NCBI GenBank assembly: GCA_964558645.1
Contig: CAZLEV010000002.1
Location: 192,001-256,000 of the forward strand
Reading direction: 5' to 3'
Source: an uncultured archaeon
GTDB taxonomy: Archaea; Asgardarchaeota; Thorarchaeia; Thorarchaeales; Thorarchaeaceae
Length of the DNA: 64,000 nucleotides
This document shows, in pieces, positions 3,185 through 58,679 of the stretch (position 1 is its first letter; every line of letters begins with the position of its first letter). The notes under the pieces are model-generated. The model searched no databases, was not told where the DNA came from, and was given only the letters and a program-made list of their open reading frames with translations. Position numbers and translations under genes: made by a program.

Positions 3185-4039
3185 GACACCTCTGACAAAG
3201 AGCCACGGAACCCAATGATTGGAAATCAGCCGTGAATGTCGTATCCATTTCTTCCAGTTGCCAGTCTTTACTGCCCAGCCCTCTGTCGATCTCTATGGAA
3301 ACGTGGAGAGAACCAATGATAGGGACATCTTCGGTAGATATCACATAGAACACTATTGTATAAGTCCCCCATTACTCTCCGAGGTTGTCATAGCCAAATA
3401 CGCCTCCCCAGTCACCACGTGTCACGTTCCGGAAGTCCCTGCACAGGTCTACCGTTCATTGTATGTGGGACAAAAGATATGAGTCTTCTTCCATACGAAT
3501 GTGATTCAGGACTAGATGGGTCGCGTCCAGGTTCATCACCATGATGATGGTAGACAAACTCGGACACCAGAGAGTTGTCCCCCCAGGTAAGCGCACTGGG
3601 TGGTCTCTGTCGTGGTCAGCGATACTGTGTGAGTGACCAGCTCTCAGTTGTGGGCTGGAGGATATAGACTCCTATACTGGAGTGTCCCACCCTGTCGACG
3701 TTTTCGGTAGCTGTTGGTCTACCCTTGCTGTATAGCCCAGCTGTTCGAACTCCTCTGACGGCATGTTCAGTAGCTGGTGAGTATAGCTCAGTCTGTTCGG
3801 ACAGTTCCCCCAATCGAGGACAAAGACATCATAGTACAGGACGTTAGAGAACCCAGGGTGCGGCGGAGGTACATAAGACTCCATGATGACCCACTCTCCG
3901 AGGTGGACGTACTCGCCATCTTCAGAGATCTGGTAGTGGGACTAAGGGTCTCGCTCACTATGCTCTGGGAGTAGACTGCAGTGCCCAACCCGAAGGTCAT
4001 CAGGACTAGGCCGACGACTGCCAGGGCAGATGCAGCCAT
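3165..4039 (-). pseudogene. Disrupted membrane-protein gene, probable paralog of 2681-3184, split by the repeat element
   Basis: N-terminal TM (MAASALAVVGLVLMTFG), frameshift near 3944, YYDVFVLDWGN...TARVD, then after the element LCRDFRNVT...GE*(TAA 3372-3374)WGTYTIVFYVISTEDV; resembles FSMYVLTWQD...FENLT...GLYCFVFTTSSEEV of 2681-3184. Confidence 0.7.
3446..3723 (+). mobile_element. Non-coding dispersed element, copy 1 (long form), flanked by 8-bp direct repeats GGTCTACC
   Basis: Starts GTTCATTGTATG (3454), ends GTAGCTGTT-GGTCTACC; direct repeats at 3446-3453 and 3716-3723; homologous to 37995-38175 and 58331-58517. Confidence 0.8.
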
Positions 4040-35716: not shown

Positions 35717-36826
35717 GTGATGAGGAGAAGTCCCCGCAGGCAATTCAAAGTCTGCCTGATAGGCGACGGTTATGTGGGCAAGACGTCAATCAGGCAGGAG
35801 TATCTGGGGAAGGGGTTTAAGGCAAGCTACATCCCCACCCTCGGAGTCGATTTCGCTCAGAAGTCGTTGATGTACGATGACAAAGAAACGCAACTTGTGA
35901 TATGGGATATCGCAGGGCAGCCCCTCTTCAAGAGCCTCCGCCAGAAGTACTATCAGGGCTGCAGCGGCATAATCCTCGTTTATTCTGTTGTGGACAGGAG
36001 CTCCTTTGACAACGCCTCAAAGTGGCTTGTTGAGGCCTACGGCTTCATGGGAGAGCTCCCACCCATAATAGTAGCGGCAAACAAGATAGATCTGCGATCA
36101 AACCGGCCAGAAGACGAGATAGTCACTTATGAAGAGGGGAAAGTCTTCGCGGAGAAGTTCAGTCAGAAACTGAATGCACCGGCCATTTTCATAGAAACGT
36201 CTGCACTGACAGGGGAGAACATCGAAGAGGCGTTTCAAGAACTGACAGAAATGATGGTTGAGAGAGTCGAGAGGCGCCTCCAAGGACTCAGAGAAGAATC
36301 GGCATCGACGATGCCAGAACAGGCCGCAGATACTCAAACCAGAGCAGTTGAATCGACAGAGACCTCTGCGTCAGGAGATTCAATGGGTTCGACCACTGCA
36401 AATACCGCACCCTCTGAGGCGGATTTTGACCCCGTGACCTCACTCATGAGCGACTCACCTCATCTACAGGAAGAGCAGATTGGAGAACATATGAGCAGAC
36501 TGCTCCAGTTGCGTAGTGAACTGAAGAGTGCAGAGGAAGAAATGGCACACCTCACCTCTCAGTATGAAACTAGGCTCTTGGAACTCAGAAACACCGTCCA
36601 TGTCAAGAAGCTGATGTATGAGCACCTCCAGACACAGATCAAGGAAACACGACAGGAGTGGTCTGATGCCTATGAGGAGTATGTGAAAATAGAGGAACAC
36701 AAGAACAGAGAGATAACACGACGGGGTAAGCAGATCGAGAGCATCCGAAAAGAAATAGAGCGTATAGGAAGGACAATAAGAACGAGGGTCGGCGACCTCG
36801 ATCTGAGAAAGGTTACTGGGTCATAG
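35717..36826 (+). CDS. Rab-like small GTPase with long C-terminal coiled coil
   Basis: G1 GDGYVGKT, G2 YIPTLG, G3 WDIAGQ, G4 NKID, G5 ETSAL. Confidence 0.93.
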   Translation: MMRRSPRRQFKVCLIGDGYVGKTSIRQEYLGKGFKASYIPTLGVDFAQKSLMYDDKETQLVIWDIAGQPLFKSLRQKYYQGCSGIILVYSVVDRSSFDNASKWLVEAYGFMGELPPIIVAANKIDLRSNRPEDEIVTYEEGKVFAEKFSQKLNAPAIFIETSALTGENIEEAFQELTEMMVERVERRLQGLREESASTMPEQAADTQTRAVESTETSASGDSMGSTTANTAPSEADFDPVTSLMSDSPHLQEEQIGEHMSRLLQLRSELKSAEEEMAHLTSQYETRLLELRNTVHVKKLMYEHLQTQIKETRQEWSDAYEEYVKIEEHKNREITRRGKQIESIRKEIERIGRTIRTRVGDLDLRKVTGS

Positions 36827-37056: not shown

Positions 37057-37812
37057 TCAAGTCCTGGCAACCAAGTAACGCAGCCACATATGCCCACTAA
37101 GATCCGTATGCGCCGATATAAGATTGAGCCGCGTTGGTAGCTCTCCTTCTTGGAGATCTGGCGAGTCGAACAGGCTCGGCGTATCAGTCCCTCCCACAAG
37201 ACCCGGGACGATTTCGATGTTGACTTCATCAACCAGTCCAGCGCGAAGAAGTGCTCCATTGAGTTTCCCGCCTGGAGTCGCCAGTATGCATTCAACACCC
37301 AATAGCGAATGAAGCTTGTTGAACGTGGCATGCAGGTCAACATGACCATCCCCAGCAAGGAGGTAAGGGATTCCCTCTCGCTGGAGATAACCGAGGTACT
37401 CTCTGGGCGTATGATTACCAACCAGAATCAGGATATGCCATCCGGGCAGGTCATCGAAGGTCTTCGCCCATCCTCTCATTCTACCTCGGCCATCAACCGC
37501 CACACACCAGCCCCTCCGCTCTGGAGAATCAATGACTGAAGAGGGAAGAAAGTCCTGGTACAGGTCAGAATCTCCGATATCAGTCGAGGGCAGGGGTTCC
37601 GGTCTCCGATTCTCCGGAACAAAAGAACCACTTCCCTCCATTATTACGGTCGGCCTGTGGAGAGATATCAAATACTCTCTAACATTGATCTCGGGAGTTG
37701 ATGTGATGGTTTCGAATCTATCGTCGCCATCGAACATAGTCTTATTCGGTGCTATTGCTACTCGTCCGTCTGCAGATGCAACCGTGTACGTTACTACTCG
37801 GGGTCGATCCAT
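37057..37812 (-). CDS. RibD C-terminal / dihydrofolate reductase-like protein
   Basis: ASADGR, GGKLNGALLRAGLVDE, PGLVGG, WLRY. Confidence 0.9.
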   Translation of the reverse strand: MDRPRVVTYTVASADGRVAIAPNKTMFDGDDRFETITSTPEINVREYLISLHRPTVIMEGSGSFVPENRRPEPLPSTDIGDSDLYQDFLPSSVIDSPERRGWCVAVDGRGRMRGWAKTFDDLPGWHILILVGNHTPREYLGYLQREGIPYLLAGDGHVDLHATFNKLHSLLGVECILATPGGKLNGALLRAGLVDEVNIEIVPGLVGGTDTPSLFDSPDLQEGELPTRLNLISAHTDLSGHMWLRYLVART

Positions 37813-37994
37813 TCAAAACTAGCTCCATGTGCTTTCTATGGGGCATTTCGAGGAGAAATATAATTCTGTTTCTCAGACACGACGAGCTTGACCACAACTG
37901 GGTGACGATTGGCGAATTACACAGCACTATCTCGTAAGAGATTGCGTATGAGGGTCGAAAAAGGTGGTCAAAAACCACACTGAGCAGTCTACGG

Positions 37995-38175
37995 GGCATA
38001 CCAACAGCTACCGAAAACGTGGACAGAGTTGGGCATGTCAGCGCAGGAGTTTATGTGCTCCAGCCCATGAGAGCTGGTCATTTTCACAGTATCGCCGACC
38101 ACGACAGAAACCACCCACTGCCGTGACCTGAGGGGACAACTCTCTAGTACCAAGTTTGCTCAACATACAATGAAC
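37995..38175 (-). repeat. Non-coding dispersed element, copy 2 (181 bp, inverted)
   Basis: Reverse complement reads GTTCATTGTATGTTGAGCAAAC...AGAGAGTTGTCCCC...TCTGTCGTGGTC...GGGCTGGAG...ACGTTTTCGGTAGCTGTTGGTATGCC. Confidence 0.9.
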
Positions 38176-38229
38176 GGTTCTGAAGGGAAAGAGTATTGAG
38201 ATAGCTCCCCTGATTCTCGGTGATGAACC

Positions 38230-38547
38230 ATGTCCGAACAGGAACCAGAATCAACGAAAGTCATTGCCGAACTTGTCATTGCGCCCTTTGGTGTAGGAAC
38301 AAGTCTGAGCAAGTATGTTCGAGAGTCTGTCAGAGTCATCGATGAATTTCCTGGCATAAGAGTCCAACACACTCCCATGAGCTCAATCATCGAAGCAGAC
38401 GATGTTGACAAGGTTCTAGCCGTGACCAAGGCGGCTCACGAGAGGATGTTCGAGGCGGGAGCCGAGAGAGTTTCCACCTTGCTTCGTATTGACGACAGAA
38501 GAGACAAGCCTCGTAGAATGGAGGATAAGGTGGAGTCTATATCGTAA
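38230..38547 (+). CDS. MTH1187/YkoF-like thiamine-binding protein
   Basis: SLSKYV, TPMSSIIE, RVSTLLRIDDRRDK. Confidence 0.92.
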   Translation: MSEQEPESTKVIAELVIAPFGVGTSLSKYVRESVRVIDEFPGIRVQHTPMSSIIEADDVDKVLAVTKAAHERMFEAGAERVSTLLRIDDRRDKPRRMEDKVESIS

Positions 38548-58185: not shown

Positions 58186-58330
58186 TTTGATTCACCGTGC
58201 CTGCTGAAGTACGACCATCAGAATTGCAGTATTTAAGACATGATGGCATATGGAGTGGTTACATCGTCACTAAGCTAAGTACTCCCACCTCCTTTGGAAC
58301 CTGTCTAACAGCACGGCGTCATGCCTTAGC

Positions 58331-58517
58331 GTTCATTGTATGTTGGACAAACTTGAACACCAGAGAGTTGTCCCCCTCAGCTAACGGCACTGGGTGGTTT
58401 CTGTCGTGGTCAGTGATACCGTGTGAGTGACCAGCCCTCAGTCATGGGCTGGAGGATATAGACTCCTACGCCGAAATGTCCAACTTCGTCCACGTTTTCA
58501 GTAGCTGTTGGTGTACC
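58331..58517 (+). repeat. Non-coding dispersed element, copy 3 (187 bp)
   Basis: GTTCATTGTATGTTGGACAAAC...AGAGAGTTGTCCCC...GGGCTGGAGGATATAGACTCC...ACGTTTTCAGTAGCTGTTGGTGTACC. Confidence 0.9.
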
Positions 58518-58679
58518 AGATGTGCCTCACAAAGTCAGTGACAGCCAATCATTGAACGAGAAGCTGAGTTCTATCAGTTCACAGATAGAAGCCTTTCAAC
58601 CGAACAAAAACCCTTTTGTAGCCCATACATCTTCACTATTGATGCCTTCCTTAACAGCAGGAAGGAGGTATACCAAAAA

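What the first reader, a model, noticed from the sequence alone, without database searches (positions are those of the whole stretch)
37995..38175. Compensatory base changes and competing hairpins in the element
Seen: a long-range 8-bp stem covaries. It is GTGGGACA/TGTCCCAC in copy 1 (3465, 3683), GTTGGACA/TGTCCAAC in copy 3 (58342, 58477) and GTTGGGCA/TGCTCAAC in copy 2 (+ strand 38028, 38157). That is two double substitutions plus one G-T pair or mismatch. Inner hairpins are CCAGCYC-loop-GGGCTGG (the 4-nt indel falls in the loop), TGGTCR...TGACCA, AACTY...GAGTT and GGAG...CTCC. Three inner stems vary by G-U wobble only in the GTTCATT-first orientation, which hints at the functional strand. 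Some stems overlap (shared CCA; GGACA has two partners), so alternative folds are possible. Inference: selection acts on RNA or ssDNA structure, or on a sub-terminal inverted protein-binding site.
Basis: partly seen in the sequence, partly recalled or inferred. Interest (0 to 1): 0.75.

Follow-up and report, generated by a model that had tools for sequence, protein, structure and literature searches.

The report
Gene-less IS607 mini-transposon carrying guide-RNA scaffold
The repeat is a protein-free mini-transposon of an Asgard (Thorarchaeota) archaeon: its 'long-range stem' is the pair of inverted transposase-binding sites at its two ends, and its inner hairpins are most likely the guide-RNA scaffold of a TnpB nuclease, a known kind of element.

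Summary
The headline claim, a covarying long-range stem, fails on 44 full-length copies from about 14 Thorarchaeota genomes. The stem is 84.6% paired, but its covariation score is 0.096 against 0.093 in shuffles (179/500 shuffles as high). It is the sub-terminal repeat TTGGACA, present twice at each end 10 bp apart and inverted between the ends.

The left end aligns with the DNA just upstream of IS607-family serine-transposase genes in relatives. Both junctions carry GG, and there are no terminal inverted repeats or target duplication.

The inner hairpins in the right ~105 nt do covary (0.233 against 0.131; 0.319 against 0.132 on 74 sequences; 0/500 shuffles). The same module lies at the 3' end of ~720-aa TnpB-like genes, always on the gene's strand.

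A TTTATATA box sits a fixed 21-22 nt upstream of the first hairpin.

Verdict: an IS607-type MITE with a promoter and an omegaRNA-like scaffold, derived from the ~8-kb tnpA/giant-ORF/TnpB element of Thorarchaeota. It is a new member of a known kind. This scan reached the same reading on another copy (e1-5514557). No transposase gene was found in this genome, and no transcript data exist.

The parts
37994..38178 (+). Whole mini-transposon (copy 2), 185 nt, in tnpB/omegaRNA sense: GGGCATACC...ACAATGAACGGT. It is intergenic, between the ORFs at 37057-37812(-) and 38230-38547(+).
   Evidence: Boundaries come from the alignment of 15 genome copies. The orthologous site in sister genome G001 is empty.
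37994..37996 (+). Left junction GGG. It holds the GG crossover dinucleotide and is TAM-like.
   Evidence: N|GGGTA is conserved at the left junctions and GAACGG|T at the right junctions. Empty sites hold one G(C/G)GT-like motif. IS607 ends and targets carry GG (PMC6188088). In C. botulinum IS607 the TAM is TGGG and the scaffold ends UCGG.
38020..38035 (+). Two direct sub-terminal repeats, TGGACA (38020-38025) and GTTGGGCA (38028-38035), 10 bp apart. I read them as presumed TnpA-binding sites.
   Evidence: The same arrangement lies upstream of IS607-type tnpA genes in nine relatives. There is no covariation with the right-end copies.
38046..38057 (+). GGAG followed by a TATA-like octamer. Here it reads TTTATGTG, which is degenerate; the subfamily consensus is TTTATATA. 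I read it as a candidate archaeal BRE/TATA promoter.
   Evidence: The octamer lies 21 nt (20-21 in nearly all rows) before the first RNA hairpin across subfamilies whose spacer sequences differ. This copy has a 17-nt spacer because of the 4-nt deletion.
38075..38101 (+). Hairpin H_C, TGGTC...GACCA. It is the first helix of the presumed RNA.
   Evidence: The pairs switch to TGAGG/CCTCA in other subfamilies. All 6 pairs show changes on both sides in alignment A8.
38105..38146 (+). Helix H_D (CAGAA at 38105-38109 with TCTCTA at 38141-38146). It encloses hairpin H_E (CCCAC-TGCCGTGAC-CTGAG, about 38114-38132) and GGAC (38134-38137).
   Evidence: H_D has changes on both sides in all 6 pairs in A5 and A8, and in 4 of 6 in A6. 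The H_E loop UGCCGUU is nearly invariant.
38148..38164 (+). Two right-end copies of the repeat in inverted orientation: an inner one (TA-CCAAG, which has a 1-nt deletion) and a terminal one (TGCTCAAC, 38157-38164). Its GUCC core also pairs with the upstream GGAC to form a pseudoknot.
   Evidence: In the GGAC/GUCC stem, one pair switches from G-C to U-A in 6 sequences. The alternative partner (the inner site) is mismatched in all 8 sequences that carry U. In this copy the stem is damaged (GCTC).
38165..38177 (+). Conserved single-stranded tail ATACAATGAACGG, which ends the element and the scaffold.
   Evidence: It is conserved in the MITEs and just after the stop codons of the TnpB-like genes.
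38178..38197 (+). Presumed guide, taken from flanking DNA. The first base is usually T.
   Evidence: Conservation stops here in all copies. The flanks have no second match in the genome beyond chance 15-17-mers. The guide role is inferred from the known behaviour of TnpB.
58328..58518 (-). Copy 3, 191 nt. It is intergenic and the best preserved of the three window copies.
3451..3724 (-). Copy 1, 274 nt. Its right end is interrupted: a degenerate inner terminus, then about 68 nt of unrelated DNA, then a second good terminus (TTTGTCCCACATACAATGAACGGT).

Best explanation
The ~190-nt repeat is a non-autonomous (MITE-like) derivative of an IS607-family transposon of Thorarchaeota. In relatives, the autonomous parent is an 8.0-8.7-kb element with this order: left end, serine-recombinase tnpA, a giant ~1,700-1,870-aa ORF on the other strand, a ~720-aa TnpB-like nuclease gene, right end.

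The mini-element keeps three things.
(1) Both ends, each with two TTGGACA repeats 10 bp apart, inverted between the ends, and a GG at each junction. These are the presumed sites at which a TnpA supplied in trans binds and recombines.
(2) A BRE/TATA-like box.
(3) About 105 nt of structured RNA starting 21-22 nt downstream of that box. It has hairpin H_C, then helix H_D enclosing hairpin H_E, then a GGAC/GUCC pseudoknot stem and the tail ACAAUGAACGG. This matches the 3' end and right end of the TnpB-like genes, that is, the omegaRNA scaffold.

Read-through into the flank would supply the guide. TnpB could then cut the empty allele of each insertion site, which is the known homing/retention role.

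Shown here: the anatomy, the homology of both ends, the empty sites, the covariation, and the strand relative to tnpB. Inferred: transcription, TnpB loading, TnpA binding, and current mobility.
For: Right end. The last ~65 nt align with the sequence around the stop codon of seven TnpB-like copies in this genome. Covariance model R1 also hits the 3' ends of TnpB-like genes in other Thorarchaeota MAGs, always on the gene's strand. P0001 carries Cas12f1-like_TNB (3e-12) and guided_TnpB (72.6 bits, below the 100-bit cutoff). It has GADRG, LENL and HADVNAA motifs and a CxxC...CxxC zinc ribbon.

Left end. It aligns with the DNA 30-60 nt upstream of serine-recombinase genes in nine relatives. One of those proteins, P0004, passes NCBIfam transpos_IS607 (181 bits; cutoff 110). 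Complete parents, from left end through tnpA, giant ORF and TnpB-like gene to right end, are in G063 and G021.

Mobility. The site of the window copy is empty in G001. Five G001 insertions are empty in this genome. GG is present at both junctions, with no TIR and no variable TSD.

Structure. The inner helices covary on MAFFT alignments (0.233 against 0.131; 0.218 against 0.133; 0/500 shuffles). They also covary on 74 model-aligned sequences (0.319 against 0.132; 177 against 58 double-change cells).

Promoter. The TATA-like octamer lies at an invariant distance across subfamilies.

Distribution. The model hits 9 of 17 genomes of the same family and 0 of 103 genomes from 25 other families of the phylum.

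Literature. The IS607 end anatomy and the TGGG/UCGG parallel are in PMC6188088 and bioRxiv 10.1101/2023.11.20.567912.
Against: No serine recombinase and no Y1 transposase were found in this genome or its two congeners (87-95% complete). Mobilisation must have come from an unassembled, lost or foreign copy.

There are no transcript data.

Single-sequence folding is no more stable than shuffles.

There is no Rfam match.

Wobble pairs in the close copies lean slightly to the opposite strand.

The upstream ~40 nt of the MITE's RNA module (H_C and H_D) is similar to the local TnpB genes in structure only, not in sequence. The direct parent lineage is therefore not in hand.

Empty sites come from other species and are too diverged to fix the crossover to the base.

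Copies in this genus are 72-88% alike and several, including the one at 38 kb, have damaged boxes and stems. Many are probably dead.
Confidence: 0.8

Rival explanations
1. The whole ~185-nt element folds as one RNA or ssDNA, closed by a covarying 8-bp long-range stem, with the GTTCATT-first strand functional. It could be a ribozyme or a switch with competing hairpins.
For: The three window copies each keep the 8-bp complementarity despite differing in sequence. With copy 1 included, double changes are 4 against 1.6 expected, P = 0.059. The GTTCATT-first strand folds a little more stably in single sequences.
Against: There is no covariation above shuffles on 44 sequences or for the nested alternative. 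Most variant copies are uncompensated. In subfamilies where the terminal site reads GTACAAC, the left-end partner stays GTTGGAC, whereas the nearby GGAC changes to GUAC. The arms lie upstream of the TATA-like box and are the IS607 TnpA-site repeats. The GTTCATT-first strand is antisense to tnpB. Folding energies are not better than shuffles.
Confidence: 0.04
2. The element is an IS200/IS605-type palindrome-associated element (PATE). On this reading its hairpins are single-strand DNA signals for a Y1 (HUH) transposase.
For: The ends are asymmetric with no TIR or TSD. The element is associated with TnpB. Hairpins lie near the right end. These features are shared with IS605 elements.
Against: No Y1_Tnp was found in the genome. 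The left end is homologous to the ends of serine-recombinase (IS607) genes. GG sits at both junctions and direct, helically phased repeats replace sub-terminal hairpins at the left end. Complete parents carry a serine tnpA.
Confidence: 0.04
3. The right-hand module is a decaying relic of the tnpB 3' coding region and transposon end. It has no RNA role of its own in the mini-element, and the structure signal is inherited from the parent.
For: The H_E region corresponds to the last codons of the TnpB-like ORF. Many copies are degraded and their folding energy is unremarkable. No transposase is present in the genome.
Against: Different MITE subfamilies, none with an ORF, keep H_C and H_D through compensatory changes. 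They also keep a TATA-like box at a fixed 21-22 nt from H_C while the spacer sequence changes completely. That pattern is hard to explain without selection on an RNA made from the mini-element itself.
Confidence: 0.1

Closest known systems
IS607-family transposons (IS607, IS1535, the C. botulinum IStron) and their omegaRNA
   Same: The ends are asymmetric and lack TIR and TSD. GG is present at both termini and at the target. Direct sub-terminal repeats are helically phased and lie 20-60 bp from the left end. The transposase is a serine recombinase with a MerR-type HTH. A TnpB gene lies at the right end. A G-rich motif abuts the left end (xGGG) and the scaffold ends ...CGG, as with TGGG and UCGG in C. 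botulinum.
   Different: Here the element carries no protein. It has two repeats per end rather than four. It has its own archaeal TATA-like box. The partner TnpB is ~720 aa. The host is an Asgard archaeon.
Asgard aCas1-TnpB elements (TnpB groups Cas1H-Asgard-1/-2; Altae-Tran et al. 2023, PMC10691335)
   Same: The full-length parents found in relatives pair a giant ORF head-to-head with an oversized TnpB. That paper also notes a variable, guide-like region after a conserved T downstream of tnpB.
   Different: I did not show that the giant ORF is Cas1-like (no Pfam or NCBIfam hit). I also did not show that P0001 belongs to those named groups. That link rests on earlier notes of this scan. The paper does not describe a mini-element or an RNA structure model.
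PATEs/MITEs of IS200/IS605 and stand-alone (effector-less) omegaRNA loci of OMEGA systems
   Same: These are short, gene-less derivatives that keep the transposon ends and the guide-RNA scaffold. They are present in many copies and depend on proteins supplied in trans.
   Different: Those elements are mobilised by a Y1 transposase through ssDNA hairpins. This one has IS607-type dsDNA recombinase sites and GG junctions.
ISDra2 TnpB omegaRNA (cryo-EM structures, recalled from memory, not read here)
   Same: The scaffold has several stems and contains a pseudoknot formed with the segment just 5' of the guide. It overlaps the 3' end of tnpB and the right end.
   Different: No sequence or Rfam-level similarity was found. 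The resemblance in architecture is a lead, not a test.

Membership tests
IS607-family transposon (non-autonomous derivative) | GG dinucleotide at both termini and at the target, with no target-site duplication | tested here: met
   N|GGGTA at the left junction and GAACGG|T at the right junction in nearly all copies. Six empty sites hold a single G(C/G)GT-like motif. Variation at the two junctions is not correlated within a copy, so this is not a variable TSD. Base-level resolution is limited because the empty sites come from other species.
IS607-family transposon (non-autonomous derivative) | No terminal inverted repeats; multiple direct, helically phased sub-terminal repeats near the left end | tested here: met
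   The termini GGGTATACC... and ...ACAATGAACGG are unrelated. TGGACA and TTGGACA lie at positions 27-32 and 36-42, 10 bp apart, and are repeated in inverted orientation at the right end. Compare PMC6188088.
IS607-family transposon (non-autonomous derivative) | Ends shared with an element that encodes a serine-recombinase TnpA (MerR-HTH plus resolvase domain) | tested here: met
   The left end aligns with the upstream regions of nine tnpA genes. P0004 scores 181 bits on NF033518 against a cutoff of 110. Complete elements with both ends are in G063 and G021.
IS607-family transposon (non-autonomous derivative) | A cognate TnpA available in the same genome | tested here: not met
   PF00239 gave no match in G000, G001 or G002 (87-95% complete). 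It was found in 16 of 40 genomes of the family.
TnpB omegaRNA (OMEGA guide-RNA scaffold) | Lies on the tnpB strand, overlaps the gene's 3' end and the right end, and ends at the transposon boundary | tested here: met
   Alignment. Model R1 hits at the 3' ends of TnpB-like ORFs in L018, L101, L103, L104, L106, L108-L111, L115 and L117 are all in gene sense.
TnpB omegaRNA (OMEGA guide-RNA scaffold) | Conserved secondary structure supported by compensatory changes | tested here: met
   0/500 shuffles reach the observed score, and slid controls score 0.03-0.11. Caveat: sequences are related, and A8 was aligned to the model.
TnpB omegaRNA (OMEGA guide-RNA scaffold) | Transcribed, bound by TnpB, and guides DNA cleavage next to a TAM | not testable with these tools
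   No transcriptome or biochemistry is available. The TATA-like box at a fixed distance is indirect support.
IS200/IS605 PATE | Y1 (HUH) transposase partner and sub-terminal ssDNA hairpins at both ends | tested here: not met
   No PF01797 in the genome. The left end has direct repeats, not a hairpin, and is homologous to IS607 ends.
Any curated Rfam family | Match to a covariance model | tested here: not met
   No match at gathering threshold in the window. No match at E <= 1 in four loci with MITE or IS right ends.

The most novel reading that the evidence does not exclude
The mini-elements are not just debris but dispersed, promoter-equipped guide-RNA genes. Each copy would transcribe a scaffold plus a guide copied from its own flank, so the ~720-aa TnpB of Thorarchaeota would be programmed by dozens of loci in trans. 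That could enforce retention or spread of every MITE insertion. Where copies face a gene, as the 38-kb copy faces the ORF at 38230, it could also affect neighbouring genes. This would be a natural multi-guide OMEGA system in the closest archaeal relatives of eukaryotes.
Probability: 0.2. Interest if true: 0.6.

Novelty: new member of a known kind. Interest (0 to 1): 0.3.

Why it matters
The work settles what the repeat is and corrects a tempting over-reading. Inverted protein-binding sites can look like a covarying RNA stem when only three copies are compared.

It also yields a covariation-supported structure model and a scaffold/guide boundary (...ACAAUGAACGG|T) for the oversized TnpB of Thorarchaeota. 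For the related Asgard aCas1-TnpB loci, the published survey left the guide region as an open point (PMC10691335).

It gives an example of a MITE that appears to have its own archaeal promoter for the guide RNA.

The element itself is an expected type, so its value lies in annotation and in choosing constructs for testing this TnpB.

Tried and rejected
- RNAalifold on mixed or close-family alignments gave unstable, conflicting folds on both strands. I used it only to suggest candidate helices.
- Wobble (G-U against A-C) counts cannot decide the strand. The close copies and the divergent subfamilies disagree.
- Folding-energy z-scores were uninformative.
- The nested alternative for the long-range pairing (first left repeat with the terminal site, second with the inner site) shows no covariation.
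- The alternative hairpin GGACA with the inner TGTCC is broken in every sequence that carries GUAC.
- The AACUC/AAGUU stem is an A-C mismatch in about half the close copies and is not conserved in other subfamilies.
- The CCAGCYC/GGGCTGG hairpin lies in the spacer between the TATA-like box and the first RNA hairpin. It scores above shuffles, but the alignment there is poor outside the close family, so I leave it open.
- I tried to fix the crossover to the base using empty sites. The flanks in sister species are too diverged.
- A search for second-site targets of the presumed guides found only chance 15-17-mers and one nested-copy artefact.
- No Rfam family matches.
- No Pfam or NCBIfam family matches the giant ORF.

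Full report
**What is there.** The window lies on contig C2 of a 3.63-Mb, 37-contig genome. That genome holds about 15 full-length copies, 72-88% alike, plus many partial matches. Record titles of the closest relatives, and earlier notes of this scan, identify the organism as a Candidatus Thorarchaeota (Asgard) MAG. All three window copies are intergenic. In the orientation used below the element reads GGGTATACCAACAGC...ACAATGAACGGT. It has no terminal inverted repeat. Conservation stops sharply at both ends.

**The right end belongs to a TnpB element.** Partial matches to the GTTCATT end lie just after the zinc-ribbon domain of TnpB-like genes, on the opposite strand. Seven such gene copies exist in this genome, and three are full-length ORFs of 718-733 aa. 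Aligned in gene sense, the last ~65 nt of the repeat match the region around their stop codons. The shared features are a hairpin CCCAG-UGCCGUU-CUGGG, then GGAC, then GUCCAAC-UACAAUGAAC|GG. The protein, P0001, has a Cas12f1-like TNB domain (3e-12) and a weak OrfB_IS605 hit. It scores 72.6 bits on NCBIfam guided_TnpB, below the 100-bit cutoff. It carries GADRG, LENL and HADVNAA motifs with a CxxC...CxxC ribbon that align to Cas12f1 structures. It has at least 157 relatives of 690-730 aa, and all that carry a name come from Thorarchaeota.

**The left end belongs to an IS607-type element.**
- This genome has no Y1 transposase and no serine recombinase.
- Of 40 genomes of the same family, 16 have ~200-aa resolvase-domain genes.
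- One of these, P0004, passes the NCBIfam IS607 transposase model (181 bits; cutoff 110) and has a MerR-type HTH.
- The 30-60 nt upstream of nine such genes align with the repeat's left end: GGGT-N5-AACAGCT-N~9-TGGACA-N3-TTGGACA.
- In G063 and G021 I could follow a complete element of 8.0-8.7 kb. Its order is left end, tnpA, a giant ORF on the other strand, a 712-727-aa TnpB-like gene, then the right end GTCCAACTAACAATCAACGG.

Earlier notes of this scan call the giant ORF the Asgard Cas1-like protein of the catalogued aCas1-TnpB elements (PMC10691335). I found no family hit for it, so that identity is untested here.

**It moved.** The site of the 38-kb copy is empty in sister genome G001. Five G001 insertions are empty in this genome. 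Junctions read N|GGGTA and GAACGG|T. The empty sites hold a single G(C/G)GT-like motif. Junction variants are not correlated within a copy, so there is no variable target duplication. This matches published IS607 behaviour. GG is present at the termini and at the target, there is no TIR or TSD, and direct repeats are helically phased 20-60 bp from the left end (PMC6188088). It also parallels the C. botulinum IS607, where the TAM is TGGG and the omegaRNA scaffold ends UCGG (bioRxiv 10.1101/2023.11.20.567912).

**The long-range stem.** Its two arms are the second left-end repeat (GTTGGACA) and the terminal right-end repeat (TGTCCAAC).
- On 44 distinct full-length elements from about 14 genomes (alignment A6), the eight pairs are 84.6% paired.
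- The covariation score is 0.096 against 0.093 in shuffles (179/500 as high), with 3 double-change cells against 2.0 expected.
- The nested alternative is no better.
- Adding the interrupted copy 1 to the 29 close copies gives 4 restoring double changes against 1.6 expected, P = 0.059. Most variants are uncompensated.
- In subfamilies whose terminal site reads GTACAAC, the left-end partner does not change.

The arms are conserved as sequence, which is what protein-binding sites look like.

**The inner hairpins.** The right ~105 nt behave differently. I used a structure of hairpin H_C, helix H_D enclosing hairpin H_E, and a GGAC/GUCC stem.
- A MAFFT alignment of 45 modules scores 0.233 against 0.131 (0/500), with 54 against 19 double-change cells.
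- The full-length alignment scores 0.218 against 0.133.
- A covariance model built on this structure finds 80 matches in held loci. Twelve are at the 3' ends of TnpB-like genes, all in gene sense.
- On the resulting 74 distinct sequences the score is 0.319 against 0.132, with 177 against 58 double-change cells. That alignment leans towards the model.
- H_C switches from UGGUC/GACCA to UGAGG/CCUCA. H_D switches among CAGAG/CUCUG, AGGAG/CUCCU, CCGAG/CUCGG and others.
One pair changes from G-C to U-A in six sequences, while pairing with the inner site would be broken in all eight sequences that carry U.
- The 3' strand of H_D lies between GGAC and GUCC, so the fold is a pseudoknot rather than a set of competing hairpins.

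**Strand and promoter.** Wobble counts are contradictory and folding energies are uninformative. The strand assignment therefore rests on synteny with tnpB and on a TTTATATA-type octamer. In nearly all subfamilies that octamer lies 21 nt before H_C (22 nt counted to the UGAGG stem), although the spacer sequence differs completely. This is the geometry of an archaeal TATA box and start site. The CCAGCYC/GGGCTGG hairpin lies in the spacer.

**Distribution.** The RNA model hits at least 31 places in this genome and 9 of 17 sampled genomes of the same family. It hits none of 103 genomes from 25 other families of the phylum. No Rfam family matches. The presumed guides (the 3' flanks) have no second-site matches.

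**Reading.** The element is an IS607-type MITE carrying a promoter and an omegaRNA-like scaffold. It is a known kind of element in a new host lineage. The copy at 38 kb is decaying: its TATA-like box is degenerate, 4 nt are missing from the spacer, and the inner site and the GGAC/GUCC stem are damaged. An earlier follow-up in this scan reached the same reading for another copy (e1-5514557). I arrived at mine before seeing it.

**Sequences left out of the alignments.**
- Copy 1 (L011) was left out of A3, A5 and A6.
- L015 (aberrant) was left out of A3 and A6 but kept in A5.
- Exact duplicates were removed.

Noticed in passing
L115+L099 (G063:C20:571-8580) and L117+L100 (G021:C7:57427-66092): These are complete 8.0-8.7-kb IS607-type elements in relatives. 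The order is left end, serine tnpA, a ~1,700-1,870-aa ORF on the opposite strand head-to-head with a 712-727-aa TnpB-like gene, then the right end. The giant ORF has no Pfam or NCBIfam hit. Earlier scan notes call it the Asgard Cas1-like protein.
   Followed up: partly
window 3451-3724 (-): Copy 1 has two right termini. One is a degenerate inner terminus (GTCTACCATCATCATGGTGATGAAC). About 68 nt further on is a well-kept outer terminus (TTTGTCCCACATACAATGAACGGT). This could be a partial duplication, an internal insertion, or an insertion beside an older solo end.
   Followed up: partly
G000 C15:56937-57045, C1:352778-352886, C1:208472-208580, C28:18944-19048, C28:21717-21836, C6:162117-162316, C25:29481-29692, C15:40092-40293: These are further MITE subfamilies in the same genome. 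They share the TATA-like box, the RNA module and the right end but have different left or internal parts. C6:15508-15618 and C6:15585-15773 are two copies inserted into or next to each other in opposite orientation.
   Followed up: partly
G000 contig starts C1:1-844, C6:1-827, C16:1-1600, C28:1-1100: Four contigs begin inside TnpB-like genes, so the assembly breaks at these repeats. A tnpA-bearing parent could be missing from the MAG for the same reason.
   Followed up: no
window 35717-36826 (+): This 369-aa ORF starts with a Rab/Ras-like small GTPase domain (GDGYVGKT...DIAGQ) and continues into a long, charged, coiled-coil-like tail. It is a typical Asgard 'eukaryotic signature' type of protein.
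   Followed up: no
G002:C57:2459-2648 vs G000:C28:25293-25482: One MITE copy is 100% identical between this genome and the species representative G002. Other shared regions are only 75-90% alike. Possible causes are very recent transfer, a shared population, or cross-binning.
   Followed up: no
G000 C26:8021-8088 vs L050 (G002:C90): The right flank of a full MITE in G002 is 97% identical to a site in this genome that holds only a right-end module. The same insertion may have been truncated in one lineage.
   Followed up: no
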